Positions 1 to 22,378 of a stretch of 29,256 bases of DNA are shown in pieces. The notes under the pieces are model-generated. The model did no database searches and had not been told where the DNA came from. It worked only from the letters and a program-made list of their open reading frames with translations. The position numbers and the translations under genes were made by a program. Each line of letters begins with the position of its first letter. The first letter of the stretch is position 1. Location of the stretch: assembly GCA_046732015.1 (NCBI GenBank), contig JBKPMF010000091.1, positions 1 through 29,256 of the forward strand, read 5' to 3'. This DNA is from Actinomycetota bacterium (GTDB taxonomy: Bacteria > Actinomycetota > UBA4738 > HRBIN12).

Positions 1-1118
1 CTCACACGCTGGGAGAAGTCGGACAACAGCTCGTACGGGGTCGCGCGCGAGCCGTAGACCAACCGGTCGGCGATCCGCTGCGCGCCTCGGCGGACCGGCT
101 GGAAGGCCAGCGCCACCGCGGCGGCCGCCACCGCGGACAACACGGTGTTGCTCGCGGCGCCCGCGATCGTCCCCACGCCCACCACGATCCCCACGTACAC
201 GGCGGTGATGAAGGCGGCGAGCAACGCGAACACGACGGTCTTGCGGATCACCAGATCGAGGTCGTAGAGGCGGTACTTCAGCACCGCGATCCCGATCGCG
301 ATCGGCAGCAGGCCGAAGCTGGCCAGGCACAGGCCTTGCAGGGTCTGCACCCATCCGGGCGTCACCTGGCTGTCCCATCCCCAGGAGAACGAGACGACCA
401 ACGCCGTCGCGTACAGGACCCCGACGATCGCCGCGGCGACGGCGATCCATTTGATCTGTTGTCGGTCATCGCCGGTGGCCCGCCGGAACCGGATCACCAG
501 ACTCGCGACGGCGGCGACGACGCCGATAGGGATGACGAAGATCCCGACGGTGAGCCACTCCAGCGAGCTCACCGCGAAGGGGTTGAGCACCCCGGGGAAC
601 CCGTCGACGGCTCCGGGGGAGAACAGGATCCCGATCGATCCGGCGATCATGCCGGCGGCAAGGACGCGCGCGAACCACCGCCAGCGTGGCGACGGCAGGT
701 GACCATCGGGGAAGATCAGCAACAGGAACGTGGCCGGGAGGGCGACGGCGGGGATCCAGAGCCACGACGTCATGCCGGCGACCTCGGCGCCGAACGGTGC
801 ACTGGGGTGGACGTAGAGCGCCCATGCCGGATAGGCGCTCGAGAGGAGCCCGACACCGTTCGCCACCCCGATCCCGAGCAAGAGCCACCCCACCGCGTTC
901 TCGGGCCTGCGTGATGCGATCAGGACCCCGACGATCGAGAACATCTGGAACGACACCAGGAACAGGACGTCACCGACGCCGATCGAGGTCACCGACGGTT
1001 CCGACGATCCACCCGACATCAAGCTGAAGACGACCGCGACCAACGCGGTGCCGATGGCCACGGAGAACAGGAGCCAGGCCAGTCCCGCGCGGGAACGGTC
1101 AGGAGCCGTGGACGACAC
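1..1118 (-). CDS. Multi-TM sensor histidine kinase, N-terminal part (runs off the window edge); paralog of 3669..5942 and 5939..8002
   Basis: Not in the ORF track; translated by hand. GTG at 1118 follows GGAGGT and gives MSSTAPDRSRAGLAWLLFS...IASRRPENAVGWLLL...LLLIFPDGHLPSPRWRW...RFRRATGDDRQQIKW...KYRLYDLDLVIRKTVV...ADRLVYGSRATPYELLSDFSQRV. These motifs match the two complete kinases. The kinase domain lies outside the window, so it is inferred. Confidence 0.85.
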   Translation of the reverse strand, partial: MSSTAPDRSRAGLAWLLFSVAIGTALVAVVFSLMSGGSSEPSVTSIGVGDVLFLVSFQMFSIVGVLIASRRPENAVGWLLLGIGVANGVGLLSSAYPAWALYVHPSAPFGAEVAGMTSWLWIPAVALPATFLLLIFPDGHLPSPRWRWFARVLAAGMIAGSIGILFSPGAVDGFPGVLNPFAVSSLEWLTVGIFVIPIGVVAAVASLVIRFRRATGDDRQQIKWIAVAAAIVGVLYATALVVSFSWGWDSQVTPGWVQTLQGLCLASFGLLPIAIGIAVLKYRLYDLDLVIRKTVVFALLAAFITAVYVGIVVGVGTIAGAASNTVLSAVAAAAVALAFQPVRRGAQRIADRLVYGSRATPYELLSDFSQRV

Positions 1119-2382
1119 GGAACACCTCCACCGGTTCCTCGCGGCCCTTCACGTGCTTCGTGCCGATCGACTCACAGATGACGCCCGGCGCGGCGGCGAC
1201 GGTGCTGTCCGTCGCCACGATCTCGCCGCCGGCCGCTTCGTTCTGGAGCCGCGAGGCGATGTTGACCGCGTCTCCCACCACCGTGTACTCGAGCCGGCCG
1301 CCACCGCCCACAGTGCCGGCGATCACCTTGCCGGTGTTCACCCCGATCCCCACACCCATCTCTGGCAGATCGACGACCTCCCACCCGGCAGCATTGAGCT
1401 CCGCCTGTCGTTCCTGCATCGCGATGGCGCAGCGCAGCGCTCGTTCCGCGTGGTCGGGCAGGGGCTCGGGGGCGCCGAAGACCGCCATCACGGCATCGCC
1501 TTGGAACTTGTCGATCGTGCCGCCGTGTGCGGCGACCACCTCGGCCATCGCCTCGAGGTGTTTGCCGACGACCGAGGCGACCTCGCGAGCTTGCAGTCGT
1601 TCGGCGATCGTCGAGAACCCACGGATGTCGCTGAACAGGACCGTGACCACAACCTCTTGGGGCTCGATCGCCGTCTTCGGGTGTGAGGCCAGCTGCTCCG
1701 CGAGCTGCCGCGGGACGAACGACGCCAGCATGCGACGTGACTCGGTTTGCTCCACGACCGCCTCGTGCAAGCGCTTGAGCTCGTCGACCAGGCTGGTGCC
1801 GCCGCCGTCGCCCGCCATGGACCGGAACAGGTCGGTGACTTGGCGGTCGACCGCCTCCTGGGTCGTGCCGAGCGCCTCGGCGATCTCCGCGTAGCCGAAC
1901 CCCTTCGCCATCATGTCCAAGAGCTCGCGATCACGCTCCGCGGTCTCGCCCCGGCCGGACAACCGCTCGGCGATCGTGGGGTCGACGACGCTGCCTCCGG
2001 CGTGCACCTCGCGGATCGCACGCACGAGTTCATCGCCCTGTGCGATCCGGTCCTTCAGCAGGTAGGCGAGGCCGCTCTGCCCCTTGCCGAGCAGCGCGAT
2101 GGCGTACTCCTCGTCGTCGTGGGCGCTGAGGACGACCACCCCGGTGTCGGGGTGGCTGTCGCGGATCGAGTGCGCGCAGTCGATCCCTTCGAGCTGGAAG
2201 CTGGGTGGCATCTTGATGTCGGTGACCACGACATCGGGTTCGTGCTCGGCAGCCGTGGCGAGCAACGACGGGGCATCCTCGGCCACCCCCACGACCTCGA
2301 TGTCGTCGTAGGAGTCCAGCAGGGCTCGCACGCCCTCGCGCACCAACACGTTGTCCTCGCCGAGCACGACCTTGATGTTCAC
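1099..2382 (-). CDS. Receiver (NarL-type) + LuxR-like HTH + class III adenylate/guanylate cyclase fusion protein
   Basis: REC motifs: GEDN, VTDIKMPP (phospho-Asp), LSAH, LLKD. HTH: RDRELLDMMAKGFGYAEIAEALG. Cyclase: LFSDIRGFS, IDKFQGDAVMAVFGAP, GIGVNTG, EYTVVGDAVNIASRLQ. GTG start preceded by GGAAGG. Confidence 0.9.
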   Translation of the reverse strand: MNIKVVLGEDNVLVREGVRALLDSYDDIEVVGVAEDAPSLLATAAEHEPDVVVTDIKMPPSFQLEGIDCAHSIRDSHPDTGVVVLSAHDDEEYAIALLGKGQSGLAYLLKDRIAQGDELVRAIREVHAGGSVVDPTIAERLSGRGETAERDRELLDMMAKGFGYAEIAEALGTTQEAVDRQVTDLFRSMAGDGGGTSLVDELKRLHEAVVEQTESRRMLASFVPRQLAEQLASHPKTAIEPQEVVVTVLFSDIRGFSTIAERLQAREVASVVGKHLEAMAEVVAAHGGTIDKFQGDAVMAVFGAPEPLPDHAERALRCAIAMQERQAELNAAGWEVVDLPEMGVGIGVNTGKVIAGTVGGGGRLEYTVVGDAVNIASRLQNEAAGGEIVATDSTVAAAPGVICESIGTKHVKGREEPVEVFRVVHGS

Positions 2383-2414
2383 GCCGCTCGCCTTCCTGGC
2401 CGGGGGTGCACGTG

Positions 2415-2420
2415 TACCAT
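2415..2420 (+). promoter_or_regulatory. -10 element TACCAT, 6 nt before ATG 2427 (leaderless transcript)
   Basis: TACCAT-ccgcgc-ATG with no Shine-Dalgarno; matches the actinobacterial TANNNT consensus. Confidence 0.6.
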
Positions 2421-2426
2421 CCGCGC

Positions 2427-3095
2427 ATGATCAGAGTGGTGTTCGCGGAGGATAACTACCTCGTGCGCGAAGGAACAGCCGCGCTGCTGGCATCGGTCGA
2501 CACCGTGGAACTCGTGGGGACGGCCGAAACGCGCGACGAACTGCTCACCGCCGTCACCGAACTGGCTCCCGACGCGGTGCTGACCGACATCCGGATGCCG
2601 CCGACGAACAGCAACGAAGGCATCGAGGCGGCCAAGCTGATCCGCGAGACCCACCCGCAGATCGGCGTGGTCGTGCTCTCGCAGTTCGCGGACGAGGAGT
2701 ATGCCTACGAGCTGCTGAAGGACGGCGCCGCCGGGCTCGGCTACCTGCTGAAGGAACGCGTCGCCGATGTGGACGAACTCGTCCGCGCCCTCGAAGAGGT
2801 GGCTCGCGGGGGCAGCGTGCTCGACCCCAAGGTGGTCGAAGCGCTCGTCGCCGCCAAGGACCGGATGGCGCACTCCCCGCTGGCCTCCCTCACCGACCGC
2901 GAGCGCGAGGTCCTCTCGCACATGGCGCAGGGCCAGAACAACGCCGCGATCGCGAAGTCGCTCTTCCTCACCGAACGCGCCGTCGAGAAGCACATCAACT
3001 CCCTGTTCCACAAGCTGGACCTCACGGAGGAACCCGATGTGCACCGCCGCGTGATGGCCGTGCTCGCGTTCCTCCGTGAGACCGATCAGCCCTAG
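2427..3095 (+). CDS. NarL/LuxR-family DNA-binding response regulator
   Basis: MIRVVFAEDN, LTDIRMPP, YLLKERV, LTDREREVLSHMAQGQNNAAIAKSLFLTERAVEKHINSLFHKL. Start moved from the ORF-track 2406 to ATG 2427. Confidence 0.93.
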   Translation: MIRVVFAEDNYLVREGTAALLASVDTVELVGTAETRDELLTAVTELAPDAVLTDIRMPPTNSNEGIEAAKLIRETHPQIGVVVLSQFADEEYAYELLKDGAAGLGYLLKERVADVDELVRALEEVARGGSVLDPKVVEALVAAKDRMAHSPLASLTDREREVLSHMAQGQNNAAIAKSLFLTERAVEKHINSLFHKLDLTEEPDVHRRVMAVLAFLRETDQP

Positions 3096-3097
3096 CG

Positions 3098-3505
3098 TCA
3101 CTGAGCTCTCCGCGTGTCCACGATGAACACGCTGCACGGGGCGTGGCGCAGGACGAGGTTCGGGACGCTGTCCTTGACGCGCCACCAGCTCCCGTGGACG
3201 CCTCGGTTGCCCACCACGATCGTGTCGGCGTGCTCCTCGGCCGCGACCTCGACGATGCGCTCGGCGGCGTCGCCCGTCTCGGTCCGTGTCCGGGTCGCCA
3301 GGCCGGGGAAGCGCTCCCCCATCCTGGCGAGGTAGCCGGAAGGGTCCGCGGACTTCGCTGGATCCACCACCGTGCGGAGGTCGCCGTCCTTGCGGACGTA
3401 GAGCACGAGGAGCTCGGCTCCCCTCGCATGGGCCAGGGCGGCGGCGTCTTCCACCGCGAGATCGGCCGAGGCCGTGGTGTCGGTGCCTACCAGGATGGTC
3501 GTCAT
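3098..3505 (-). CDS. Universal stress protein (single USP domain)
   Basis: TILVGTD...ADTIVVGNRG...SVPNLVLRHAPCSVFIV; AAGGAG upstream. Confidence 0.9.
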   Translation of the reverse strand: MTTILVGTDTTASADLAVEDAAALAHARGAELLVLYVRKDGDLRTVVDPAKSADPSGYLARMGERFPGLATRTRTETGDAAERIVEVAAEEHADTIVVGNRGVHGSWWRVKDSVPNLVLRHAPCSVFIVDTRRAQ

Positions 3506-3542
3506 CGTGGGTCATCTCCTTCGGGCGGTTGTCTGCGATCTC

Positions 3543-3548
3543 ACCGTA
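3543..3548 (-). promoter_or_regulatory. Putative -10 element TACGGT for the USP gene
   Basis: TANNNT match about 38 nt upstream of the start. The same ccTACGGTg context occurs upstream of the receiver gene at 8454..8459. Confidence 0.4.
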
Positions 3549-3653
3549 GGCCCCCTGACCTGCGACGACGACCCGGCCGCCACCACGGTTGGCGGGGGTG
3601 GAGGCACCTGGCGAAGTGGTGGCGTTCTCCCCCTGGCCCTGGGTGGACGCGGA

Positions 3654-3662
3654 TGCGACCAT
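3654..3662 (+). promoter_or_regulatory. Extended -10 TGc-GACCAT, 6 nt before ATG 3669 (leaderless)
   Basis: TGCGACCATCCGGGCATG, nearly identical to TACCATCCGCGCATG at 2415. Confidence 0.45.
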
Positions 3663-3668
3663 CCGGGC

Positions 3669-5942
3669 ATGGAGGGAACCGCCAGACCTGAGGTGTCCCG
3701 AAGTGATCGTCCGCCCACGGGCTCACGCACGGCGCGAACGATCGCCATCGTCGCGATCGTGCTGTGCGCCGGCGCCTCGATAGCGGCATTCGCGCTCAGA
3801 GCGATCGCTCCGCCCGACCCGTCGCCAGCGACGATCGTCGTGATCGGCGACCCCACGGCGGATCGTGTCCAAGAGGTCAGGAAAGCCTCTGAGGCCTTGA
3901 TCGCCGACGGAGCGCGATTCGGCCAGACCCAGACGAGCACGGTGATCGGTCTTGTCGCGGTACTCCTCGCCTGCTTGGGCTGGATGGCGGTCGGCGCCCT
4001 GATCGTCTCGAAACAGCCCCGGAACTGGGCGGGATGGATCTTCTTGGCGATCGGTGCGACCCTTCCCTTGGCGAACCTGTTCCAGGTGTTGGTCTTCGTC
4101 GGCGCGCGTCGAGATCCCGGCTCGATCCCCTTCCTTGGCTTGATCGCCTTCGTCGGCTTCTACCTGATCTTCCCCATCGCTCTGCTCCCGCTGCTGTTCC
4201 TCCTCTACCCGGACGGTCATGTGCCGAGTCCGGGATGGCGATGGGCCGTCCGTGGCCTGCTCGGTGGCACCGGTCTGGCGATCCTCGGCTACGTCGTCTC
4301 CCCCGGCCCGCTCAACTCCTACATCTCGGACGGGGTTCTCTACGTCAACCCCATTGGGATCGACGGCGCCGCCCCCGTGGCCAACGCGTTGATCACCGCC
4401 GGCACGATCGTCGCCCAGATCTCCGCCTTCGCCCCGGCGATCGCGATCCGCCAGCGCTACCGCCGATCCACCGGAACCCTGCGGGAGCAGATGCGGCTGT
4501 TGGTGCTCGTTGCGGCGACCGCCGGGACGATGCTGCTCCTTGGGTTCATCGGCACCTTCGTCGGAGCACTCCTCGGCAACGACCAGGAGACGCCGCCGTT
4601 CTTCTTGGTGCTCTTCGCGTTCCTGGTCCTGACGTTGTTGGTCGGGGTGCCGGGCGCCTACCTCGTCGCGATCTTCCGTCACGGCCTGTGGGACATGGGC
4701 CTGGTGATCCGCAAGACGGTCCAGTACGGCGTGCTGGTGGTCGCCTTCATGGTGCTTGGATTCGTCATCGTGGCCGTCGTGCCGACCTTGCTGATCGGCG
4801 TCGGCGGCACGGACTACGTGGCGACGGTCATCATCGCGGCGTTCCTCGCCGGGTCCTTCCTCTGGCTGCGACCCCGCGCGACCCGCTTCGCCAACCGGCT
4901 GGTCTACGGACGGCGCGCCACCCCGTACGAGGTGCTCTCGGAGTTCAGCGAACGCGTCGGGGAGACCTACTCCACCGACGACGTCCTGCCACGGATGGCG
5001 CATCTACTCGTGCAGGCCACAGGAGCACGTCGTGCCGACGTGTGGTTGCGCGTCGGTTCCGAGCTGCGCTGTGAGGCGAGGTGGCCCACCGACGTCGAGC
5101 CACCGGCGAGCCGACTCATCCGCGGGGACGAGATCACGGGACCGCACGATGACTACCTCGCCGAGGTCCGCCACCAGGACGAACTCCTGGGTGCGATCAC
5201 CCTCGACCTCCCGGCGGATGATCCGATGAACACGTCCAAGGAGGCGCTGGTTCGCGACCTCGCCGCCCAGGCGGGGCTCGTCCTTCGCAACGTTCGATTG
5301 ATCGAGGAGTTGCGCGCGTCACGTCAGCGGTTGGTGGCGGCCCAGGACGAGGAACGCCGCAAGCTCGAACGGAACATCCACGACGGTGTGCAGCAGCAGC
5401 TCGTGGCGCTCACGGTGCAGCTTCGGCTCGCCGAGCAGCTCACGGATCGCGATCCGGCCAAGGCGCGCGAGCTCATGGCGACGCTCCAAGGTCGGACGAA
5501 CGAAGCGCTGGAGGATCTGCGAGACCTGGCCCGCGGGATCTATCCACCGCTGCTGGCGGACAAAGGCCTCACCACAGCGCTCGAGGCGCAGGGCCGGAAG
5601 TCGCCGGTGCCGGTCACGGTCCAGGCGGACGGGATCACGCGCTACCCGCAGGCGGTCGAGTCCGCGGTCTACTTCTCGTGCTTGGAGGCGCTCAATAACG
5701 TGGCGAAGTACGCGGAGGCCGAACACGTGACGATCACCCTGGCGCGCATGGACGGTTCGCTCGCCTTCGACATCACCGACGACGGTCGCGGCTTCGACAC
5801 GGAGGTGACCACGCACGGCACCGGCCTGCAGGGCATCGCCGACCGGCTCGACGCGCTCGGAGGCACGATGCGGATCGAGAGCGCGGCCGGCGAGGGCACG
5901 TCTCTGCACGGGACCGTGCCCGCCGCCGAAGGGCAGCGATGA
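3669..5942 (+). CDS. Multi-TM sensor histidine kinase (TM region - GAF-like - HisKA_3 - HATPase)
   Basis: Many hydrophobic segments; H-box ERRKLERNIHDGVQQQL; EALNNVAKYA, DDGRGFD, GTGLQGIADRL. Start moved from 3474 to ATG 3669. Confidence 0.92.
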   Translation: MEGTARPEVSRSDRPPTGSRTARTIAIVAIVLCAGASIAAFALRAIAPPDPSPATIVVIGDPTADRVQEVRKASEALIADGARFGQTQTSTVIGLVAVLLACLGWMAVGALIVSKQPRNWAGWIFLAIGATLPLANLFQVLVFVGARRDPGSIPFLGLIAFVGFYLIFPIALLPLLFLLYPDGHVPSPGWRWAVRGLLGGTGLAILGYVVSPGPLNSYISDGVLYVNPIGIDGAAPVANALITAGTIVAQISAFAPAIAIRQRYRRSTGTLREQMRLLVLVAATAGTMLLLGFIGTFVGALLGNDQETPPFFLVLFAFLVLTLLVGVPGAYLVAIFRHGLWDMGLVIRKTVQYGVLVVAFMVLGFVIVAVVPTLLIGVGGTDYVATVIIAAFLAGSFLWLRPRATRFANRLVYGRRATPYEVLSEFSERVGETYSTDDVLPRMAHLLVQATGARRADVWLRVGSELRCEARWPTDVEPPASRLIRGDEITGPHDDYLAEVRHQDELLGAITLDLPADDPMNTSKEALVRDLAAQAGLVLRNVRLIEELRASRQRLVAAQDEERRKLERNIHDGVQQQLVALTVQLRLAEQLTDRDPAKARELMATLQGRTNEALEDLRDLARGIYPPLLADKGLTTALEAQGRKSPVPVTVQADGITRYPQAVESAVYFSCLEALNNVAKYAEAEHVTITLARMDGSLAFDITDDGRGFDTEVTTHGTGLQGIADRLDALGGTMRIESAAGEGTSLHGTVPAAEGQR

Positions 5943-8002
5943 ACGAGGCCCGACCGCTGCGATGGCCCTGGGCGATCTCGGTCGCCGCGATCCTCGTGCT
6001 CACCGCGGCGATCGTGCTGACGATCGTCAACGACACGTTCGGCCTGTTCGTGGTGGTCGCCGCGATGATGGTGACGGGGTACGGCATCGTCGGCGCCTTC
6101 CTGGCCACGCGCGTACCGCGCAACCCCATCGGCTGGCTGATGCTCGTCATGGCTGCCTCGTTCGCGGTCGTCGGGGTGGCGGACGAGTACCTCACGTACA
6201 CGCTCAAGACCAACCCCGGAGCCCTGCCGTTGCCAGAGGTGGCCGCATGGCTCAACGGCTTCGTCTTCTACGGGGTCTTCATCCCGCTGCTGGTGATCCT
6301 GCTCCTGTTCCCCACCGGGACCCTGTTGTCGTCCCGATGGCGCATCGTGCTCATCGCGGTCCTGACGAGCGGCGGCCTCCTGATCGCGTCGGCGATCCTG
6401 AAGCCGGGTCTCTACACCGACTTCCCCACGATCACCAACCCCACCGGGATCGAGGGCCTCCGGTCGATCACCGTGGTGTTCGACTGGGTCGGGGGGCCGT
6501 TGCTCATCCTCGGGGCCATCGGCTCCGTGGCTGCCGTGGTGGTCCGCTACCGCCGTGCCGCCGGCGACGAACGACAGCAGATCGCGCTGCTGGCATGGGT
6601 GGCTGCGACCGCGATCGTGATCCTGACCCTGGGGCTGACGCTGCAGTCCGTCTTCCCCGTCGTGGGCTCGATCGGGTTCACGGCACTGTTCGCGGTGATC
6701 GGCATCGGAGTCCCGCTGGCGATCCAGAACGCGGTGATGCGTCATCGTCTCTACGACCTCGACGTCGTGATCAAGAAGACGGTGGTATTCGCGATCGTCG
6801 TCGTGCTGCTGGTGGGGGTGGGTGGGGTCATCGCCGTGCTCGTCGGCGTCGGTATCGTCCCCTCGTTGTCCGACTCGCCGGCGCTCATGCTCTTCCTCGG
6901 CCTGGCGTACGGGTTGATGGTCGCTCCGGCATACCGGCTCGCGTCTCGTATCGCCGACCGGGTCGTGTACGGCGGCCGGGCCAGCCCGTCCGAGGTGCTC
7001 AGCGAGTTCTCCGAACGGCTTTCGGAGACCTACGCCACCGACGACGTGCTGCCCCGGATGGCCGCGATCGTGGGTGGAGCCACCCGGGCGAAGGACGTCC
7101 GCGTCTGGCTGCGTGTGAGCGGGGTGTACCGGGTGGCGGCGACCTGGCCCTCCGACCTGCCGCCCGAGGATCCCGTCGCCGACCCCGGGAAGACGTTGCC
7201 GCGATTCCCGGACGACGGCCATCGCACGGAGGTGCGAGACCGCGGCGAGCTGCTGGGGGCGATCACAGCGTCGTTCCACGCCAACGATCCGATCGACCCC
7301 GCGCGGGAACGGCTGATCCGCGACATGGCCGCCCAAGCCGGCTTGGTTTTGCGCAACGTGGGATTGATCGAGAACCTCCGTGCGTCCCGCCAGCGGATGG
7401 TCGCCGCCCAGGACGAGGGTCGGCGCCGCCTCGAACGCAACATCCACGACGGCGCGCAACAACAGCTGGTCGCACTGTCGGTCAAGACCAGGCTGGCCGA
7501 CACGTTGATCGACCGCGACACCACGAAGGCGCACGAGATGCTGGCCCAGATCCAAGCGGACACGAACGACGCGCTGGAGACCCTGCGCGACCTGGCACGC
7601 GGGATCTACCCGCCGCTGCTCGCTGACAAGGGCCTGGCGACGGCACTTGCCGCGCAGGGACGCAAGGTCGCCGTGCCGGTGCGCCTGGACGCCGACGGCA
7701 TCGGGCGCTATCCGGCTGAGGCGGAGGCGACCGTGTATTTCTGCGTGCTCGAAGCCATGCAGAACGTGTCGAAGTACGCGCAGGCATCGGGGATCGAGCT
7801 TCAGCTGCGGACGTCAAACGGCTCGCTGACCTTCGAGGTTCGCGACGACGGGGTGGGCTTCGATCCAGAGACGTACACGCCGGGCACGGGGATCCAGGGG
7901 ATGCAGGACCGGCTGGATGCGGTCGGCGGCTCGCTGCAGGTGACCTCCGCCCCCGGGATCGGCACCGTCGTGTTCGGGATCGTGCCGATCTCACCGACAT
8001 GA
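5939..8002 (+). CDS. Multi-TM sensor histidine kinase (TM region - GAF-like - HisKA_3 - HATPase)
   Basis: H-box RRRLERNIHDGAQQQL; EAMQNVSKYA, DDGVGFD, GTGIQGMQDRL; ATGA overlap with the upstream kinase. Confidence 0.92.
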   Translation: MNEARPLRWPWAISVAAILVLTAAIVLTIVNDTFGLFVVVAAMMVTGYGIVGAFLATRVPRNPIGWLMLVMAASFAVVGVADEYLTYTLKTNPGALPLPEVAAWLNGFVFYGVFIPLLVILLLFPTGTLLSSRWRIVLIAVLTSGGLLIASAILKPGLYTDFPTITNPTGIEGLRSITVVFDWVGGPLLILGAIGSVAAVVVRYRRAAGDERQQIALLAWVAATAIVILTLGLTLQSVFPVVGSIGFTALFAVIGIGVPLAIQNAVMRHRLYDLDVVIKKTVVFAIVVVLLVGVGGVIAVLVGVGIVPSLSDSPALMLFLGLAYGLMVAPAYRLASRIADRVVYGGRASPSEVLSEFSERLSETYATDDVLPRMAAIVGGATRAKDVRVWLRVSGVYRVAATWPSDLPPEDPVADPGKTLPRFPDDGHRTEVRDRGELLGAITASFHANDPIDPARERLIRDMAAQAGLVLRNVGLIENLRASRQRMVAAQDEGRRRLERNIHDGAQQQLVALSVKTRLADTLIDRDTTKAHEMLAQIQADTNDALETLRDLARGIYPPLLADKGLATALAAQGRKVAVPVRLDADGIGRYPAEAEATVYFCVLEAMQNVSKYAQASGIELQLRTSNGSLTFEVRDDGVGFDPETYTPGTGIQGMQDRLDAVGGSLQVTSAPGIGTVVFGIVPISPT

Positions 8003-8019
8003 CCCGACATAGGGGGGCC

Positions 8020-8042
8020 CGGTAGTCTGAGCGAGACTACTG
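8020..8042. terminator. Hairpin between convergent genes (possible bidirectional terminator)
   Basis: GTAGTCT-gagcg-AGACTAC perfect 7-bp stem, extendable by G-U and C-G. The right arm includes the stop codon of 8037..8411. No U-tract. Confidence 0.5.
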
Positions 8043-8411
8043 TGAAGCGCTCGCGGCCGACCAGGCGTCTTCGAGCCGGTCCGGTCCGAACACGGCCTTG
8101 GGGATGTAGGACGCCGCCCCGCATTCGGCCGCCTTGGGCGCGTATTCGTCCTCTTCGTAGGTGGAGAGCAGGAGCACCACGACCGTGTCCGAACCGCTCA
8201 GGATCTGTCGCGTGGCGTCCAGGCCGTTGATCCCGGGAAGGTTCACGTCCATCAGCACGAGGTCGGGCTGCAGGTCGGCCGCCATCGTCACCGAGTCTTC
8301 ACCGGTTTCGGCCTCGCCCACGACGTCGAAGCCGTCCGTGGCGTCGACGACCATGCGGGCCGCCATGCGGAACGGCTCCTGGTCATCGACGATGAGCACT
8401 CGGACGGACAT
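8037..8411 (-). CDS. Stand-alone (single-domain) response regulator receiver
   Basis: MSVRVLIVDDQEP...LVLMDVNLPGING...LLSTY...YIPKA, then stop after 124 aa with no output domain. AGGAG upstream. Start moved from 8783 to 8411. Confidence 0.9.
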   Translation of the reverse strand: MSVRVLIVDDQEPFRMAARMVVDATDGFDVVGEAETGEDSVTMAADLQPDLVLMDVNLPGINGLDATRQILSGSDTVVVLLLSTYEEDEYAPKAAECGAASYIPKAVFGPDRLEDAWSAASASQ

Positions 8412-8453
8412 GGCTGATGCTCCTGTGGGTTCGGGCGATACGACCAGCGTCCC

Positions 8454-8489
8454 ACCGTAGGGTCCGACCGCCAGTAGTGCCAGCACCAC
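8454..8489 (-). promoter_or_regulatory. Putative -10 TACGGT (8454..8459) with an inverted repeat GTGGTGC-tg-GCACTAC (8474..8489) over the -35 zone
   Basis: Read directly from sequence; the inverted repeat has one mismatch in 7 bp. Activator-site role is inferred. Confidence 0.4.
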
Positions 8490-8542
8490 AGTTGAAGTAG
8501 TCCTGGGTGCGCGGCATGAGTAGCAGAGGGCGTCGATGCCCG

Positions 8543-9655
8543 TCAGGCGGCGAGTTCGACCAGCGAGAGGAAGGCCCGCTCCAGCACGAGCCGCACGTTG
8601 AGGTTGAAGTCGTCGGCGAGCTCGGCTCGGGCGGCCTCGATCCCTGCGAGACCCTTCGCCGCCCGGGTGACCCCCAGGACGTCGCCGGGGGCGAGGTCGG
8701 GGTTCAACAGGTCGGCGGCGCGGACGCCGACGCCGGCGGCGATGCGATCGCGGAGCAGCGCCGAGACGGCCAGCAGCACCCAATCGACGTAGTCGCGTTC
8801 CGCTCGGCGTTCCTTGCGCTTGAAGCGGGTCTCGATGCGTTTGATCGCGCCACGGTAGGCGTCCTCGGGGCGGCCCTTCTCATCCATGAACGGCGCGAGC
8901 TCCTCGTCGAGCTCGCCCTTGAGGTTCTTCTTGTATTCGGCGGCGGCCTCCAGCACGACGGTGGCGGCGGCGAGACCGCCGGGCGGACCCTGCGCCGCGA
9001 GCTCGATCGCGTCACGTGCGGCTTCGCGGAACTTCAGGCCGTCGGCCGAGACCGCGAGGCGCCGGGCACGACCCAGGTTGCCACCGGCGAGCCGCGCCGC
9101 GAGGGCTGCCTTCGTCTCGTCCACCCCTTCGGTGACGAGGGCGTCCACGACGAACGCCTCGGAGAGAGCGGTGAACGTGACGACGTGACACCGCGACAGC
9201 ACGGTGTCGGGCAGCTCATGCGCGCGTGCCGACATCAACAGGAACACGGCGTCGGCGGGCGGCTCCTCCAGCACCTTCAGCAGGGTGTCGGCGGCGGCGG
9301 GTGAGAGCCGGTCGGCCTCGCGGATCACGAAGACCTTGCGGCCCGGTTCGGGCGAGGTGCGCGATGCGGGATGCCACACCTCGTCGCGGATCGTGTCGAC
9401 GTGGATGTCGCGGCCCTCGGGTTCGATCAGGAACTCGTTGGGATGGTGGTCCTTCAACGCCAGGCGGCAGTCGCGGCACTCCCCGCAGCCGCCGTTGCGA
9501 CACATCAGGGTGGCGACGAAGGCGCGTGCGGCGATCGACTTGCCGCTGCCCTCCGGTCCGGCGAACACGTAGGCGTGGTGCGGCCGCGAGGCGGCGCTGG
9601 TGAGGAACGCCATGGCGACGTCCTGGCCTGGAACGCTCGAGAGGACGGGCTGCAT
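8543..9655 (-). CDS. holB: DNA polymerase III subunit delta-prime
   Basis: HAYVFAGPEGSGKS, Zn motif C..CGECRDC, KVFVIREADRL, ADTLLKVLEEPP, TVLSRC; expected topA-tmk-holB neighbourhood. Confidence 0.9.
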   Translation of the reverse strand: MQPVLSSVPGQDVAMAFLTSAASRPHHAYVFAGPEGSGKSIAARAFVATLMCRNGGCGECRDCRLALKDHHPNEFLIEPEGRDIHVDTIRDEVWHPASRTSPEPGRKVFVIREADRLSPAAADTLLKVLEEPPADAVFLLMSARAHELPDTVLSRCHVVTFTALSEAFVVDALVTEGVDETKAALAARLAGGNLGRARRLAVSADGLKFREAARDAIELAAQGPPGGLAAATVVLEAAAEYKKNLKGELDEELAPFMDEKGRPEDAYRGAIKRIETRFKRKERRAERDYVDWVLLAVSALLRDRIAAGVGVRAADLLNPDLAPGDVLGVTRAAKGLAGIEAARAELADDFNLNVRLVLERAFLSLVELAA

Positions 9656-9661
9656 CCGGCG

Positions 9662-9667
9662 ATGGTA
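9662..9667 (-). promoter_or_regulatory. -10 element TACCAT, 6 nt before the holB ATG (leaderless)
   Basis: Minus strand reads TACCAT-cgccgg-ATG with no SD. Confidence 0.6.
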
Positions 9668-9719
9668 GCGCGAAGGTGCGACCGCCCGGCCGGATGCCGA
9701 GACGACTAGGGTTGACCCG

Positions 9720-9725
9720 GACCAT
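9720..9725 (+). promoter_or_regulatory. Putative -10 GACCAT, 7 nt before ATG 9733
   Basis: GACCATCCGGTCCATG; same pattern as 2415 and 3657; overlapped by the GGACC-atcc-GGTCC inverted repeat. Confidence 0.35.
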
Positions 9726-9732
9726 CCGGTCC

Positions 9733-12546
9733 ATGGGGACGTGGCGAGGCGCGGCGATGACCGGCGACCAACCGATCGGACGTGAGGACGAACTCGCTGC
9801 GATCATGTCGTTCGTCCAGGCGGCCCCCACCGGACCGGCCGGCATGGTCATCAGCGGCTCGGCGGGGATCGGCAAGACCATCCTGTGGCTCCAAGGCGTC
9901 TCGATCGCCGGGGCAGCGGGTACCGATGTCCTGACGAGCCGCCCGAGGCAAGCGGAGACGGCGTTCGCCTTCGCCGCCCTCGCCGATCTGCTGAACGAAC
10001 GCTTCGAGCATGTGGCCGGTCAGCTCCCGGCCCCGCAGCGCCGCGCGTTGGAGGTCGCATTGCTCCGCGCGGAGGGCGACGACCGCGGCCCGGACCGTCA
10101 CGCCGTTTCCGTGGCGGTCTTGAGTGCGCTGCGGTTGCTCGCGGACGAGCGACCGGTGCTGCTCGCGATCGATGACGTGCAATGGATCGACCCGCCCTCG
10201 GCGCACGCCTTGTCGTTCGTCCTGCGTCGTCTGGAGGCCGAGGCCGTCTCGGTGCTCACGACCCTGCGGGTCACCGAAGGGATCCCCGATCCCTTGGACC
10301 TCGAGACGTCGCTGGGTGAGCGTCTGACCCGGCTGGACGTGGGACCGCTCCCTTTGGACGTGTTCACGCGGTTGATCCATGAACGCACCGACGGGCGCTT
10401 CTCCCGGCCGATCCTGGTCAAGATCCACGAGGCCTCGGGCGGCAACCCGTTGTTCGGCCTCGAGATCGTGCGGGCGATGCGATCGGTCGACGGGGAGCCG
10501 CCGCCGGGAGAACCGCTCCCGGTCCCCGACGACCTGGGCAACCTGCTCCACGATCGCATCGGGTCGGTCCCGCCCGAGACGCAGGATGTCCTGCTCCTGG
10601 CGTCGGCCACCTCCAGTCCCACGGTCGAGCTCCTTCGTGAGTCGGGAGGTTCCGGCGACGATCGCCTGGGGCCCGCCGAAGCGGCAGGGATCGTCCGCGT
10701 CCTCAGCACCGGTGAGGTCGAGTTCACGCACCCACTCCTCGCTTCCGCCGTCTACGGGCAGGCGACCTCGGCGTGGCGGCGGGACGCGCACGCTCGACTC
10801 GCTCGGACGATCGCCGACCCCGAGGAGCGCGCTCGCCACCTCGCACTGTCCTCCTCCGCGCCAGATCCCGAGGTAGCCGGTGCCCTCGACACGGCGGCGA
10901 TCCACGCCTCGAAGCGTGGCGCTCCCTGGACCGCTGCCGAGCTCGAGGAACTCGCCCTGCGGTTGACCCCCGACCACGACACGGCGATGCACCGGCAACG
11001 GTCACTGCACACCTCGGAGTACCGATTCCAAGCGGGGGACGCGGGAGCGGCACGGCGAGCGGCCGACGACGCCCTGCGTGCCTCGACGTCCGGCCCCGAG
11101 CGGGCCGAGGTCCTCTACCTGTTGTCGGGCTTCGGTTGGAACGACCTCACGGAGATCCGGCCCCTCCTGGAGCAGGCGGTCGCCGAGTCGGACGGCGCTC
11201 CCGATCTCATGGCATCCGCGATGGCGGATCTGGGATGGATCGAGATCGTCGGCGGTGATCTCAAGGTCGCGGCGCGTCATGCCCGACGTGCGATCGAGCT
11301 CGCGGGAACCGGCGGCGATCCCGGCCCGCGATCGCTCGCGCTCATCACCACCGCCTATGCCGAATTCATGCTCGGCATCGACGCGTCGTCGCTCCTGGCC
11401 GAGGCCCAGGAACTCGAGGACCCACAGGCCGACCGGCAGATGCTCTCGTACCTGCTCACCAACTCGCTCAATACGCTGGGGGCCCAGCGGATGTGGTCGG
11501 GAGACCTCGAGGGCGGCCGGCAGATCCTGGAGCGCGCGCACACCGATGTGGTGGAGCGAGGTCGGTACCTCCTGCTGTGGGAGATGCTCGTCTACCTGTC
11601 GGAGTTGGAGACCCGCGCCGGAGCGTTCGCTCGTGGTCTTGACTATGCCGAGGAGCTGCTCGAGACGCTGGCGGAAGCTGGGTACGACCAAGCCCGCGAG
11701 CTGGGACTGTGGGCTCGCTCGCTGGCGGAGGCGCATCTCGGCATGGTGGAAGCGGCGCGGGCCGATGCCACCGAAGGGCTCGCCCTGGCCGAACGCCACC
11801 GCGACCTCTTCCACGTGATCACGAATCGATCCGTGCTCGGATTCCTCGAACTGTCGCTCGGCGACCCAGCCGCGGCCCATCGCTGGCTCGAACCGCTTCC
11901 GGACCTGCTCGCCGCTCGCAACATCGTCGAACCGGGGATCTACCCCGTCGTACCGGACGCGGTCGAAGCACTCATCGGCATCGGAGAGATCGACCGGGCT
12001 GAGGAGGTGCTCGAACCCTTCCAGGCCTGGAGCGAGAAGCTCGACCGTCCCCTGACGCTCGCAACCGCCGCGCGGAGCCGGGGATCGATCGCAGCCGCGC
12101 GCGGTGATCTTCCCGCTGCGCTGGCGTACGTCGAGGACGCGGTCGCTCGCCACGCCCGCGTGAGCCAACCGTTCGAGCTCGCACGCACCACCTTGGCCTT
12201 CGGGGATATCCAGCGGCGCGCGAAACAGAAGCGAGCCGCCGCGGCGTCCCTGCGATCGGCCCTGTCGATGTTCGAGGCGCTGGGCGCACCGCTCTGGGCG
12301 GCCAAGGCCCGGGCCTCACTGGCGCGGATCAGCGGCCGGACCGCCACCGTCGGCCTCACCGAGAGCGAGCGGCAGACGGTGGTCCTGGCGATCGAGGGCC
12401 GGACCAACCGTGAGATCGCCGAGTCGATGTTCGTGAGCGTCCGCACCGTCGAGGCGAACCTGTCCAGGGCGTACGCGAAGTTGGGGGTGGGCTCACGCCG
12501 CGAGCTGCGGGTCGACCTGTTGCCCCCTGCGCCGCAAGAGCCCTAG
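9733..12546 (+). CDS. Large ATP-binding LuxR-family (AAA ATPase - TPR-like - HTH) transcriptional regulator
   Basis: IGREDEL, Walker A GSAGIGKT, Walker B LLAIDDVQW, SGGNPLF, C-terminal LTESERQTVVLAIEGRTNREIAESMFVSVRTVEANLSRAYAKLG. Start is ATG 9733 or ATG 9757. Confidence 0.9.
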   Translation: MGTWRGAAMTGDQPIGREDELAAIMSFVQAAPTGPAGMVISGSAGIGKTILWLQGVSIAGAAGTDVLTSRPRQAETAFAFAALADLLNERFEHVAGQLPAPQRRALEVALLRAEGDDRGPDRHAVSVAVLSALRLLADERPVLLAIDDVQWIDPPSAHALSFVLRRLEAEAVSVLTTLRVTEGIPDPLDLETSLGERLTRLDVGPLPLDVFTRLIHERTDGRFSRPILVKIHEASGGNPLFGLEIVRAMRSVDGEPPPGEPLPVPDDLGNLLHDRIGSVPPETQDVLLLASATSSPTVELLRESGGSGDDRLGPAEAAGIVRVLSTGEVEFTHPLLASAVYGQATSAWRRDAHARLARTIADPEERARHLALSSSAPDPEVAGALDTAAIHASKRGAPWTAAELEELALRLTPDHDTAMHRQRSLHTSEYRFQAGDAGAARRAADDALRASTSGPERAEVLYLLSGFGWNDLTEIRPLLEQAVAESDGAPDLMASAMADLGWIEIVGGDLKVAARHARRAIELAGTGGDPGPRSLALITTAYAEFMLGIDASSLLAEAQELEDPQADRQMLSYLLTNSLNTLGAQRMWSGDLEGGRQILERAHTDVVERGRYLLLWEMLVYLSELETRAGAFARGLDYAEELLETLAEAGYDQARELGLWARSLAEAHLGMVEAARADATEGLALAERHRDLFHVITNRSVLGFLELSLGDPAAAHRWLEPLPDLLAARNIVEPGIYPVVPDAVEALIGIGEIDRAEEVLEPFQAWSEKLDRPLTLATAARSRGSIAAARGDLPAALAYVEDAVARHARVSQPFELARTTLAFGDIQRRAKQKRAAAASLRSALSMFEALGAPLWAAKARASLARISGRTATVGLTESERQTVVLAIEGRTNREIAESMFVSVRTVEANLSRAYAKLGVGSRRELRVDLLPPAPQEP

Positions 12547-22330: not shown

Positions 22331-22340
22331 GGCGCCCGAC

Positions 22341-22346: not shown

Positions 22347-22378
22347 CGCCCCGGTCGGACGCCCGACGCCCACGGCGG

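What the first reader, a model, noticed from the sequence alone, without database searches (positions are those of the whole stretch)
1..8411. Candidate undescribed two-component/cAMP signalling island
Seen: seven consecutive genes form one block: three paralogous multi-TM sensor kinases, a NarL-type regulator, a stand-alone receiver, a receiver-HTH-cyclase fusion whose stop overlaps one kinase start, and a USP. Inference: the kinases phosphorylate three kinds of receiver and give a transcriptional output, a cAMP output and a phosphate sink, with the USP as possible cAMP effector. I do not know of a described locus with this composition, but I cannot search.
Basis: partly seen in the sequence, partly recalled or inferred. 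Interest (0 to 1): 0.82.

Follow-up and report, generated by a model that had tools for sequence, protein, structure and literature searches.

The report
Kinase array feeding a receiver-regulated cAMP cyclase
An uncultured soil actinobacterium carries a conserved gene cluster in which related membrane sensor kinases probably control an ordinary gene-switch protein, a small receiver protein and a sister protein that makes cAMP; it is real and unstudied, but it is a new arrangement of known parts.

Summary

The key gene is a NarL-type response regulator fused to a class IIIb adenylate cyclase. Its receiver and all six catalytic residues are invariant in 12 orthologs from 8 families.

The cluster is not chance. 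In 80 species of this soil class, the canonical NarL sibling lies back to back with the fusion in 75 of 76 loci. A USP is present in 52 of 55, and a kinase lies directly downstream of the fusion in 56 of 65. Loci hold 0-8 paralogous kinases.

Fusions at 45-50% identity in other classes, including Acidimicrobiia, mostly keep a HisKA_3 kinase, NarL and the stand-alone receiver, but not the USP.

The fusion's HTH lacks helix alpha10, is acidic and evolves faster than its sibling's. It is most likely an adaptor, so transcription is the sibling's job.

USP as cAMP effector remains weak: this genome has 14 cNMP-binding domains. Phosphotransfer wiring is inferred, not shown.

This scan has met the same family before on other genomes. 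I found no publication. Verdict: a new variant of a known kind, of moderate interest.

The parts
3..1118 (-). HK1: N-terminal 372 aa of a polytopic sensor kinase. It lies downstream of the fusion in the same operon and is cut by the contig end, so the kinase core is not in the window.
   Evidence: ORF and GC3. 35% identity to the HK3 membrane and linker region. No Pfam hit in this part. The window is a whole contig. A kinase sits directly downstream of the fusion in 56 of 65 species.
1099..2382 (-). REC / three-helix LuxR-type HTH remnant / coiled-coil and CTE-like linker / class IIIb adenylate cyclase fusion, 427 aa. GTG start at 2382; the stop overlaps the HK1 start.
   Evidence: Pfam. PDB sequence matches to Cya2, CyaB and CyaC. 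AF2 model with mean pLDDT 82; the cyclase domain superposes on CyaB 3R5G with Z 27.8 and rmsd 1.5 A. Invariant D10, D55, S86, K110 and D252, K292, D296, T367, N374, R378.
2383..2426 (.). 44-bp gap between the two diverging start codons. It holds a class-wide conserved GTGTA(C/G)(C/G)ATCC motif. TACCAT at 2415-2420 lies 6 nt before the NarL ATG and is read as a TAnnnT -10 box for a leaderless NarL mRNA. An AGGAAGG Shine-Dalgarno sequence for the fusion lies on the other strand.
   Evidence: Alignment of this region in 21 loci; sequence. The general promoter scan found nothing, so the -10 reading is an inference from conservation and spacing.
2427..3095 (+). Canonical NarL/FixJ-type response regulator (REC plus four-helix GerE HTH). 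It is the paralog of the fusion's first 190 residues (49-51% identity). An alternative GTG start lies at 2406.
   Evidence: Pfam Response_reg 2e-15 and GerE 3e-14. tblastn paralogy. Recognition helix invariant in 12 genomes of 8 families.
3098..3505 (-). Single-domain universal stress protein, 135 aa, convergent with the NarL gene (2 nt between the stop codons).
   Evidence: Pfam Usp 8e-22. Best PDB matches are 5AHW and 1TQ8, E about 6e-6. Ortholog alignment. Present in 52 of 55 class loci.
3669..5942 (+). HK2: polytopic sensor kinase (membrane domain, GAF-like domain, HisKA_3, HATPase_c). Probable ATG start at 3669.
   Evidence: Pfam. Start chosen by comparison with the ortholog L022:7628. 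Falls in the NarL-side kinase clade.
5939..8002 (+). HK3: polytopic sensor kinase, 687 aa, about 10 TM helices. Its start codon overlaps the HK2 stop codon.
   Evidence: Pfam. AF2 model with mean pLDDT 87 and 93-98 in the membrane part. TM scan. Falls in the NarL-side kinase clade.
8037..8411 (-). Stand-alone receiver, 124 aa, with canonical DD / D54 / T / K residues. Convergent with HK3 and downstream of holB.
   Evidence: Pfam Response_reg 3e-23. Orthologs at 46-67% identity sit beside NarL in fusion loci of other classes, whereas the best paralog in its own genome is 41%.

Best explanation
This is a conserved, branched two-component signalling module of uncultured soil Actinomycetota.

Shown by sequence, structure models and comparative genomics:
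- There is an array of paralogous kinases. Each has about 10 TM helices, a GAF-like domain, HisKA_3 and HATPase_c. Their membrane domains have diverged while the DHp helix around the phospho-His is nearly identical.
- There are three intact receivers: a canonical NarL-type transcription factor; its duplicate whose DNA-binding domain lost helix alpha10 and now carries a coiled-coil/CTE-like linker and a complete class IIIb adenylate cyclase; and a single-domain receiver.
- Gene order is conserved across a class of about 290 species. Most fusion loci sampled in other classes still hold a HisKA_3 kinase, NarL and the receiver.

Inferred mechanism:
- Each kinase senses a different membrane-borne or membrane-proximal cue, autophosphorylates, and passes the phosphoryl group to the receivers.
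- Phosphorylation of D55 dimerises the fusion. The helical linker then brings two cyclase domains into the active head-to-tail dimer, so cAMP is made.
- The sibling, phosphorylated in parallel, binds a conserved operator and changes transcription.
- The single receiver competes for phosphoryl groups or modulates the kinases, as DivK does.

In this window HK1, which shares the fusion's operon, is most likely the fusion's main kinase. HK2 and HK3 most likely serve NarL and the receiver. Cross-phosphorylation is likely.

The fusion's HTH is most likely a structural adaptor, not a DNA binder. The USP is a class-level passenger of unknown role.
For: Domains and paralogy.

Cyclase:
- Best solved relatives are Cya2, CyaB and CyaC (E down to 6e-34).
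- The Lys/Thr substrate pair is the same as in P. aeruginosa CyaB.
- All six catalytic residues and the receiver's D10, D55, S86 and K110 are invariant in 12 orthologs of 8 families.
- The model's cyclase domain superposes on 3R5G (Z 27.8, rmsd 1.5 A).

Conservation:
- The fusion is found in 227 of 294 genomes of the class, and in 89 of 109 high-quality ones.
- In 80 species loci, the diverging NarL is present in 75 of 76, a kinase directly downstream in 56 of 65, at least one NarL-side kinase in 48 of 55, and the receiver in 36 of 55.
- Outside the class, 23 of about 370 sampled genomes have full-length fusions at 45-50% identity.
- Of 14 such loci fetched, 8 hold a HisKA_3 kinase, NarL and the receiver, 3 hold some of them, and 3 show the fusion alone.

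Input diverges, output is kept: column identity is 0.29 in the sensor, 0.64 in the DHp and 0.53 in the CA domain. The H-box is nearly identical in all paralogs.

Shared kinases: in families f2, f4, f5 and f6 the fusion has no kinase of its own, and the only kinases in the locus lie beyond NarL. DHp helix 1 shows no clade-specific signature.

Sub-specialisation: in f1 and f3 the downstream and NarL-side kinases form separate well-supported clades.

HTH as adaptor:
- Alignments to VraR, NarL and DevR stop at alpha9.
- HTH conservation is 0.63, against 0.82 for REC and 0.70 for the cyclase. The sibling's HTH scores 0.86.
- Net charge of alpha7-alpha9 is -4.6 (class) and -2.7 (distant), against +0.7 in the sibling.
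Against: No phosphotransfer, cAMP synthesis or DNA binding has been measured. All wiring is inferred from gene order and sequence.

- The fusion and its sibling carry three fixed differences on receiver helix alpha1 (V/Y, V/T, R/A), and the fusion usually has its own co-operonic kinase. Both facts fit insulated pathways as well as a branched one.
- The stand-alone receiver's alpha1 is quite different from the other two, so it may use another kinase.
- The fusion's HTH is still clearly more conserved than the linkers (0.63 against about 0.45), so some specific function remains and DNA binding is not excluded.
- Some distant loci use kinases with a different sensor domain and insert an ABC transporter. 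The module's input is therefore not uniform.
- HK1's catalytic core is not in the window.
Confidence: 0.55

Rival explanations
1. There are two or three insulated two-component systems that merely stay side by side. The fusion plus its downstream kinase(s) form a pure cAMP pathway. NarL (with the single receiver) plus the NarL-side kinases form a separate transcriptional pathway, with no cross-phosphorylation.
For: - The fusion and a kinase form a tight operon with overlapping or near-overlapping codons in 56 of 65 species.
- Downstream and NarL-side kinases form separate clades in f1 and f3. The position label needs 5 changes on the tree, against 15 in shuffles.
- There are three fixed paralog-specific differences on receiver helix alpha1. 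This is the pattern expected when duplicated pathways become insulated.
Against: - In families f2, f4, f5 and f6 the fusion has no kinase of its own in the locus, yet its receiver is fully intact.
- DHp helix 1 is nearly identical in all paralogs and carries no clade-specific residue.
- The two genes stay back to back 23-86 bp apart in 75 of 76 species. That is hard to explain if they are functionally unrelated.
Confidence: 0.25
2. The fusion is a true dual-output regulator. On phosphorylation its HTH binds DNA, and the same dimer makes cAMP, or DNA binding gates the cyclase.
For: - Within the class the recognition helix is fairly conserved (0.69).
- It aligns position by position with the sibling's: AVDRR(V)T.LF against AVEKHINSLF.
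- The cyclase dimer and coiled coil could replace the lost alpha10 as a dimerisation device.
Against: - Helix alpha10 is missing.
- Pfam GerE is detected in only 1 of 12 orthologs at E<0.01.
- The HTH is net acidic (-4.6), and in the distant fusions the recognition helix has almost no basic residue.
- The HTH evolves faster than either flanking domain, whereas the sibling's HTH is its most conserved part.
Confidence: 0.12
3. The USP next to NarL is the dedicated cAMP receptor or buffer for the cAMP made by the fusion, like mycobacterial Rv1636 / MSMEG_3811.
For: - Its best solved relatives are exactly the two cAMP-binding USPs (5AHW and 1TQ8, E about 6e-6).
- The two glycines that contact cAMP in MSMEG_3811 (G10, G114; PMC11107214) align to G7 and G99 and are invariant in the orthologs.
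- The USP is present in 52 of 55 class loci.
Against: - Those glycines belong to the general nucleotide-binding motif of ATP-binding USPs, so they do not discriminate between ligands.
- The PDB matches are weak.
- No USP is found in the 14 fusion loci of other classes.
- The genome has 14 cNMP-binding domains and about 20 cyclase domains, so other effectors abound.
- The Asp that replaces the third motif Gly occurs only in family f1.
Confidence: 0.2
4. The grouping is accidental: signalling genes are common in this genome and happen to lie together.
For: The genome is rich in such genes. It has at least 5 kinases of this family, many NarL paralogs and about 20 cyclase domains.
Against: The same arrangement recurs in 80 species and, in its core, in other classes.
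Confidence: 0.02

Closest known systems
Receiver-regulated class III adenylate cyclases, such as cyanobacterial CyaC of Spirulina/Anabaena and Dictyostelium ACR (PMC3009899).
   Same: A receiver domain controls a class III cyclase domain in one polypeptide. The CyaC catalytic domain (1WC1) superposes on the model (Z 26.7).
   Different: CyaC and ACR are hybrid proteins that carry their own kinase domain and have no HTH. Here the protein is a stand-alone NarL-family regulator that keeps three HTH helices between the receiver and the cyclase. It also sits beside its canonical sibling and separate kinases.
P. aeruginosa CyaB (PDB 3R5G), a class IIIb adenylate cyclase
   Same: Closest solved catalytic domain (34-35% identity, Z 27.8, rmsd 1.5 A). 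Same Lys/Thr substrate pair and the full metal and transition-state residue set.
   Different: By recollection, CyaB is regulated by an N-terminal MASE2 membrane domain, not by a receiver.
NarL/FixJ (LuxR-type) response regulators: VraR, NarL, DevR/DosR, DesR
   Same: The fusion's residues 1-189 align end to end with these proteins up to the recognition helix (E 1e-15 to 7e-13). The neighbouring sibling is a full member of the family.
   Different: The fusion lacks helix alpha10, its HTH is acidic and scores below Pfam's GerE threshold, and a cyclase follows.
Mycobacterial Rv0386-type cyclases (cyclase / AAA ATPase / TPR / LuxR HTH)
   Same: This is the only cyclase+LuxR combination reported in the 2012 census of actinobacterial LuxR proteins, and only in Mycobacterium (PMC3466318). 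A cyclase and a LuxR-type HTH share one protein.
   Different: The domain order is opposite, there is no receiver, and a large ATPase lies in between. The window encodes a cyclase-less relative of that type next door (9676..12546).
Caulobacter PleC/DivJ - DivK - PleD branched pathway (established knowledge, not tested here)
   Same: It works alike. Several kinases would serve both a single-domain receiver and a receiver fused to a nucleotide cyclase that is activated by phosphorylation-induced dimerisation.
   Different: The second messenger is c-di-GMP made by a GGDEF domain. The kinases belong to another family. There is no sibling transcription factor, and there is no homology beyond the receiver domains.
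DesK-DesR and LiaS-type intramembrane-sensing HisKA_3 systems (established knowledge)
   Same: HisKA_3 kinases with short extracellular loops pair with NarL-family regulators. The best NCBIfam similarities (MctS, UhpB, LiaS) are all far below their cut-offs.
   Different: The domain here has about 10 TM helices and no Pfam family, and it has conserved cytoplasmic-face motifs (FPDG.LPS.RWR and R.RR..G.ERQQ). A GAF-like domain is inserted. The kinases occur in tandem arrays of up to 8 per locus.

Membership tests
Class III nucleotidyl cyclase, subclass IIIb adenylate cyclase (fusion, residues 242-427) | Cyclase homology domain above Pfam's threshold | tested here: met
   PF00211 scores 87.6 bits against a cut-off of 21.9, and all 12 orthologs match.
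Class III nucleotidyl cyclase, subclass IIIb adenylate cyclase (fusion, residues 242-427) | Two metal-binding Asp plus the transition-state Asn and Arg | tested here: met
   D252, D296, N374 and R378 are invariant in 24 sequences. They align to the same residues of Cya2 and CyaB.
Class III nucleotidyl cyclase, subclass IIIb adenylate cyclase (fusion, residues 242-427) | Adenine-specifying Lys, with Thr in place of Asp at the second substrate position | tested here: met
   K292 and T367 are invariant within the class, the same pair as in CyaB 3R5G. One distant subgroup has Gln at the Lys position.
Class III nucleotidyl cyclase, subclass IIIb adenylate cyclase (fusion, residues 242-427) | Homodimer that makes cAMP | not testable with these tools
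   This needs an enzyme assay. No complex prediction was run, because a pass would only reflect likeness to solved cyclase dimers.
NarL/FixJ response regulator (the fusion) | Receiver with the acidic pocket, phospho-Asp, Ser/Thr and Lys | tested here: met
   D10, D55, S86 and K110 are invariant. PF00072 scores 62 bits against a cut-off of 30.2.
NarL/FixJ response regulator (the fusion) | Complete four-helix GerE/LuxR DNA-binding domain | tested here: not met
   GerE is found in 1 of 12 orthologs at E<0.01 and never at threshold. Alignments to solved family members end at alpha9. In the AF2 model the helix at 175-190 is followed by a Gly linker and a long helix at 196-220.
NarL/FixJ response regulator (the sibling at 2427..3095) | Receiver plus GerE HTH above the Pfam thresholds | tested here: met
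   PF00072 scores 57.1 bits and PF00196 scores 53 bits against a cut-off of 23.5. No NCBIfam equivalog reaches its cut-off (MadR 129 against 300), so it is a family member with no named ortholog.
HisKA_3 sensor histidine kinase (HK2, HK3) | HisKA_3 dimerisation/phospho-acceptor domain with the H-box His, plus HATPase_c | tested here: met
   PF07730 scores 59 and 49 bits, and PF02518 scores 36 and 34 bits, all above their cut-offs. The H-box reads ERNIHDG.QQQL.
HisKA_3 sensor histidine kinase (HK1) | The same catalytic core | tested here: inconclusive
   The core lies beyond the contig end. Only the membrane and linker part is present, and it is homologous to HK2 and HK3. Kinases at this position in other genomes are full length.
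cAMP-binding USP of the Rv1636 / MSMEG_3811 type | USP fold with the two glycines that contact cAMP (G10, G114 of MSMEG_3811) | tested here: met
   G7 and G99 align to them and are invariant in 17 orthologs. These residues are not specific to cAMP binders.
cAMP-binding USP of the Rv1636 / MSMEG_3811 type | Full G-2x-G-9x-G(S/T) nucleotide motif | tested here: not met
   The motif reads GNRG-9x-DS in the window and in family f1. Orthologs in the other families have Gly, Gln or Arg at that position.
cAMP-binding USP of the Rv1636 / MSMEG_3811 type | Binds cAMP in preference to ATP | not testable with these tools
   This needs a binding assay.
Rv0386-type cyclase-ATPase-LuxR proteins | N-terminal cyclase, central AAA/NB-ARC ATPase, C-terminal LuxR HTH, no receiver | tested here: not met
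   The domain order here is REC, HTH, cyclase, with no ATPase.

The most novel reading that the evidence does not exclude
The three-helix HTH remnant is not inert. It may make the cyclase DNA-dependent or promoter-tethered, so that one phosphorylated dimer both occupies the shared 44-bp control region between the two genes and makes cAMP. Alternatively, it may heterodimerise with the canonical sibling, so that the cAMP and transcriptional branches gate each other directly. Either case would be a new type of dual-output response regulator.
Probability: 0.12. Interest if true: 0.8.

Novelty: new variant of a known kind. Interest (0 to 1): 0.5.

Why it matters
Response regulators are usually thought of as having one output. 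Here a duplicated NarL-type regulator has been turned into a phosphorylation-controlled cAMP source while its sibling kept the DNA-binding job. The pair has stayed back to back, with expandable arrays of sensor kinases (0-8 per locus), through a whole class of abundant but uncultured soil Actinomycetota, and it also occurs in Acidimicrobiia.

If the inferred wiring is right, the locus links two-component signalling to cAMP signalling in bacteria that are very rich in cAMP components. This genome has about 20 cyclase and 14 cNMP-binding domains in 2.6 Mb.

It also offers a natural case of how a DNA-binding domain is recycled into a signal-transmitting adaptor. The membrane sensor domain of the kinases is a large family with no Pfam model and no known ligand.

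All parts can be expressed in E. coli, so the questions are testable without culturing the host.

Tried and rejected
- **Membrane domain of the kinases.** Pfam at E up to 10 gave nothing usable. The protein-atlas features pointed only to unnamed actinobacterial clusters, plus a weak 0.84 lead to HisKA_7TM. The AFDB fold search returned only uncharacterised full-length homologs. I therefore do not claim a new fold.
- **Fold search for the HTH.** Both PDB searches with the fusion model were filled by cyclase domains. The HTH was judged by sequence alignment instead.
- **First cyclase query.** It was out of frame and returned an error. It was repeated correctly.
- **Promoter scan.** The generic sigma-70 scan found no site in 1-9800, and terminator-like hits were at the level of the shuffles. 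Operon boundaries therefore rest on spacing and strand only.
- **Rfam.** No match in the window.
- **Specificity residues.** The DHp helices show no clade-specific pattern that pairs with the three fixed alpha1 differences of the receivers. The wiring cannot be resolved this way.
- **Expression.** Four metatranscriptome runs gave short contigs. A few match with 0-2 differences: 3716-3905 and 5201-5406 in HK2, and 2355-2634 across both start codons. They are contigs without strand or ends, and RNA libraries can contain DNA. I take this as a weak hint only. Parts without cover mean nothing.
- **Search for a cultured carrier.** The distant fusion from a complete genome matched only MAG proteins, the named ones labelled Acidimicrobiia or Acidimicrobiales. 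No cultured carrier appeared in the lists shown.
- **Complex prediction.** Not run. Kinase-receiver and cyclase-dimer pairs would pass or fail by likeness to solved structures and would not settle the wiring.
- **Literature.** Five full-text searches found no description of a REC-HTH-cyclase regulator or of this locus. The library lacks most subscription journals.

Full report
**What is in the window**

The window is a complete 29,256-bp contig (C91) of a fragmented metagenome-assembled genome. The assembly has 2.58 Mb in 321 contigs, is 83% complete, and is about 69% G+C.

Because high-GC DNA is full of spurious ORFs, I chose genes by third-position GC and confirmed them with Pfam.

1. HK1, 3..1118(-), N-terminal 372 aa only; the gene runs off the contig.
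2. A REC-HTH-cyclase fusion, 1099..2382(-), 427 aa.
3. A NarL-type regulator, 2427 (or 2406)..3095(+).
4. A USP, 3098..3505(-).
5. HK2, 3669..5942(+).
6. HK3, 5939..8002(+), whose ATG overlaps the HK2 stop.
7. A stand-alone receiver, 8037..8411(-).

The fusion's stop lies within the first codons of HK1. HK2 and HK3 are 45% identical over 681 residues, and the HK1 fragment is 35% identical to HK3.

To the right lie housekeeping genes: holB, an MFS-thymidylate kinase fusion and topA. There is also a large AAA-TPR-LuxR regulator and an unrelated KdpD/KdpE-like locus.

**The fusion protein**

Residues 1-127 are a canonical receiver. Residues 144-190 form three helices that align residue for residue with the LuxR-type HTH of the neighbouring NarL paralog (49-51% identity over residues 3-189). 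A Gly-rich turn, a long helix (196-220) and a short helix (225-233) follow, and then a cyclase domain (242-427) (AF2 model, mean pLDDT 82).

The closest solved cyclases are Synechocystis Cya2, P. aeruginosa CyaB and Spirulina CyaC (E 6e-34 to 8e-25). The model's cyclase domain superposes on CyaB with Z 27.8 and rmsd 1.5 A over 188 residues.

In 12 orthologs from 8 families the following residues are all invariant:
- the two metal Asp (D252, D296);
- the adenine-specifying Lys (K292);
- Thr at the second substrate position (T367);
- the transition-state Asn and Arg (N374, R378);
- the receiver's D10, D55, S86 and K110.

The Lys/Thr pair matches CyaB, whereas guanylate cyclase Cya2 has Glu at the Lys position. 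I therefore read the enzyme as a class IIIb adenylate cyclase under control of receiver phosphorylation. The chemistry itself is inferred.

**Is the HTH still a DNA-binding domain?**

Earlier agents of this scan called it a relic on other genomes. I tested this here in three ways.

1. Sequence alignments to solved full-length NarL-family regulators (VraR, NarL, DevR, DesR, ChrA) cover the fusion from residue 1 to 186-189 and stop at the end of the recognition helix. Helix alpha10, which those proteins use to dimerise on DNA, is absent. Pfam GerE is detected in 1 of 12 orthologs.
2. In the same 12 genomes the sibling's HTH is its most conserved part (column identity 0.86, with the recognition helix invariant). 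The fusion's HTH scores 0.63, below its receiver (0.82) and cyclase (0.70) but above the linkers (about 0.45).
3. Helices alpha7-alpha9 of the fusion carry a mean net charge of -4.6 within the class and -2.7 in distant fusions, whose recognition helices have almost no basic residue. The sibling scores +0.7.

I conclude that the HTH most likely survives as a structural adaptor between receiver and cyclase. I give DNA binding about a 12% chance. The transcriptional output of the locus then belongs to the sibling alone.

**The kinases**

HK3 folds with high confidence: pLDDT is 93-98 across the membrane part. It has about ten TM helices, a small alpha/beta domain with weak GAF similarity, a long DHp helix and the ATPase domain.

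The positive-inside rule puts both termini in the cytoplasm. It also places the two conserved motifs (FPDG.LPS.RWR and R.RR..G.ERQQ) on the cytoplasmic face. The outside loops are short. This suggests sensing within or at the membrane, which is an inference.

The membrane domain matches no Pfam family even at E = 10. It finds only uncharacterised full-length homologs in AFDB.

Across 45 paralogs and orthologs, column identity rises from 0.29 in the sensor to 0.64 in the DHp. The H-box and the helix after it are almost the same in every copy. This is the pattern expected if many different inputs converge on the same receivers.

**Conservation**

The relatives are all uncultured soil Actinomycetota MAGs, including soil-MAG catalogue and Microflora Danica bins. 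The GTDB class holds one order, 8 families and 294 species.

- The fusion is found in 227 of these genomes, and in 89 of 109 high-quality ones.
- Those tallies, and those, include unpublished genomes G029, G069, G190, G218, G219, G220, G284 and G405. None of the loci I fetched and analysed comes from them.

In 80 species-level loci:

| Feature | Count |
|---|---|
| Sibling back to back with the fusion | 75 of 76 |
| USP on the NarL side | 52 of 55 |
| At least one kinase on the NarL side | 48 of 55 |
| Kinase directly downstream of the fusion | 56 of 65 |
| Stand-alone receiver within 9 kb | 36 of 55 |
| Kinases within 9 kb either side | 0 to 8, most often 4-5 |

The window's three kinases are thus a modest version of a variable array.

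A maximum-likelihood tree shows that in families f1 and f3 the kinases downstream of the fusion fall into two clades and the NarL-side kinases into a third, all well supported. In families f2, f4, f5 and f6 the fusion has no kinase of its own, and the only kinases lie beyond NarL.

**Beyond the class**

A sample of 400 other genomes of the phylum gave 23 full-length fusions at 45-50% identity in about a dozen families. The relatives of one of them that carry a source name are labelled Acidimicrobiia or Acidimicrobiales.

I fetched 14 of these loci:
- 8 hold the fusion together with a HisKA_3 kinase, a NarL paralog and the stand-alone receiver. NarL and the receiver are adjacent on the same strand in all 8.
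- 3 hold some of these partners.
- 3 show the fusion alone.
- None has the USP.

The receiver in those loci is 46-67% identical to the window's, more than any paralog in the window's own genome (41%).

The conserved core is therefore a kinase, NarL, the single receiver and the fusion. The receiver belongs to the module even though in this class it has moved next to holB. The USP is a later, class-level addition.

Some distant loci use a kinase with a different sensor domain and insert an ABC ATPase and an FtsX-type permease. One distant subgroup has Gln instead of the adenine-specifying Lys.

**Wiring**

Nothing here measures phosphotransfer.

For shared kinases:
- the DHp helices are near-identical and have no clade-specific signature;
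- 9 of 12 alpha1 positions are shared by the fusion and its sibling;
- some lineages have a fusion with no kinase of its own.

For partial insulation:
- the fusion and a kinase form a tight operon;
- the kinase clades follow gene position;
- three alpha1 differences (V/Y, V/T, R/A) are fixed across the class.

The single receiver's alpha1 is different again but is strongly conserved across the phylum.

My best reading is a branched module with sub-specialisation. HK1 would act mainly on the fusion and HK2/HK3 mainly on NarL and the receiver, with cross-phosphorylation likely. The nearest functional analogy is Caulobacter PleC/DivJ with DivK and PleD. This is an analogy from established knowledge, not homology.

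**The control region**

The two start codons are 44 bp apart (23 bp if the NarL GTG at 2406 is used). Across all families a motif, GTGTA(C/G)(C/G)ATCC, lies 6-7 nt before the NarL ATG.

Its TACCAT/TAGCAT/TACGAT core fits the actinobacterial TAnnnT -10 box at the distance typical of leaderless mRNAs. I therefore place the NarL start at 2427 and read the apparent conservation of the eight upstream codons as promoter conservation.

The fusion has an AGGAAGG Shine-Dalgarno sequence in the same gap. Its promoter must therefore overlap the NarL promoter or its coding start. One RNA-library contig spans 2355-2634 with two differences, which fits a transcript crossing the gap, but it carries no strand information. 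All of this is inference.

**The USP**

Its best solved relatives are the two cAMP-binding mycobacterial USPs. The glycines that contact cAMP in MSMEG_3811 (PMC11107214) are conserved. However, these belong to the general nucleotide-binding motif.

The third motif glycine is Asp only in family f1. The association stops at the class boundary. The genome also encodes 14 cNMP-binding domains and about 20 cyclase domains. I rate the cAMP-effector idea at about 20%.

**Habitat and expression**

Soil and rhizosphere metagenomes from at least nine studies hold a third to three quarters of the sampled words of the 3-kb test stretch. Four metatranscriptome runs yield short contigs on the block, a few identical to the window. 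This is a weak hint of expression only.

**Novelty**

- REC-cyclase proteins, NarL regulators, HisKA_3 kinases, USPs and branched two-component pathways are all known.
- I found no description of a NarL-type regulator with a cyclase appended behind a truncated HTH, kept beside its sibling, a single receiver and an expandable kinase array.
- The 2012 census of actinobacterial LuxR proteins reports cyclase+LuxR proteins only in Mycobacterium, in a different architecture (PMC3466318).
- Automatic annotation already labels the fusion's domains.
- This scan has flagged and followed up the same family on several other genomes.

I file it as a new variant of a known kind, with moderate interest.

Noticed in passing
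window 2383-2426 (motif core 2412-2423): A motif, GTGTA(C/G)(C/G)ATCC, is conserved in all families of the class 6-7 nt before the NarL ATG. It fits a TAnnnT -10 box for a leaderless mRNA and moves the NarL start to 2427. The fusion's Shine-Dalgarno sequence lies in the same 44-bp gap, so the two promoters must overlap.
   Followed up: partly
window 9676-12546 (+): A 956-aa AAA_16 / TPR / LuxR-HTH regulator sits next to holB. It resembles the non-cyclase part of mycobacterial Rv0386-type proteins. Elsewhere the genome has several cyclase domains in open frames of more than 1000 aa, which may be the full type.
   Followed up: partly
window 13040-15064 (-): A single 674-aa ORF joins an MFS transporter domain (residues 23-389) to a thymidylate kinase domain (468-654), between holB and topA.
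   Followed up: no
window 19973-26913 (-): Two tandem 785-aa amino-acid-permease-family proteins are followed on the same strand by an OmpR-type regulator and a KdpD-like kinase (DUF4118, GAF, HisKA, HATPase_c). TrkA and tRNA-Ser(GGA) lie beyond them. No kdpFABC genes are in the window.
   Followed up: no
L124-L129, L133-L137 (fusion orthologs of other classes): In these distant fusions the adenine-specifying Lys of the cyclase is replaced by Gln (GGTVMQF instead of GGTIDKF), while the other catalytic residues are kept. Substrate choice there may differ.
   Followed up: no
L125:8255-9001, L128:8129-8938, L133:3775-7012, L126:10850-13525: In some distant loci an ABC ATPase and/or an 890-aa FtsX-type permease lie between the fusion and a HisKA_3 kinase with a different sensor domain. 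This layout is reminiscent of transporter-coupled envelope-stress modules.
   Followed up: partly
G000 contigs C270:1133-3034 and C175:3393-5417: Two more full-length paralogs of the polytopic kinase (40-44% identity) lie on other contigs of the same genome. The closest paralogs of the NarL sibling (53-55%) are on C4 and C85. Their neighbourhoods were not examined.
   Followed up: no
L038, L039, L040, L027 (genomes G009, G022, G016, G012): The fusion and some kinases appear split over two or three frames in these few-contig assemblies. These are probably long-read indel errors rather than real pseudogenes.
   Followed up: no
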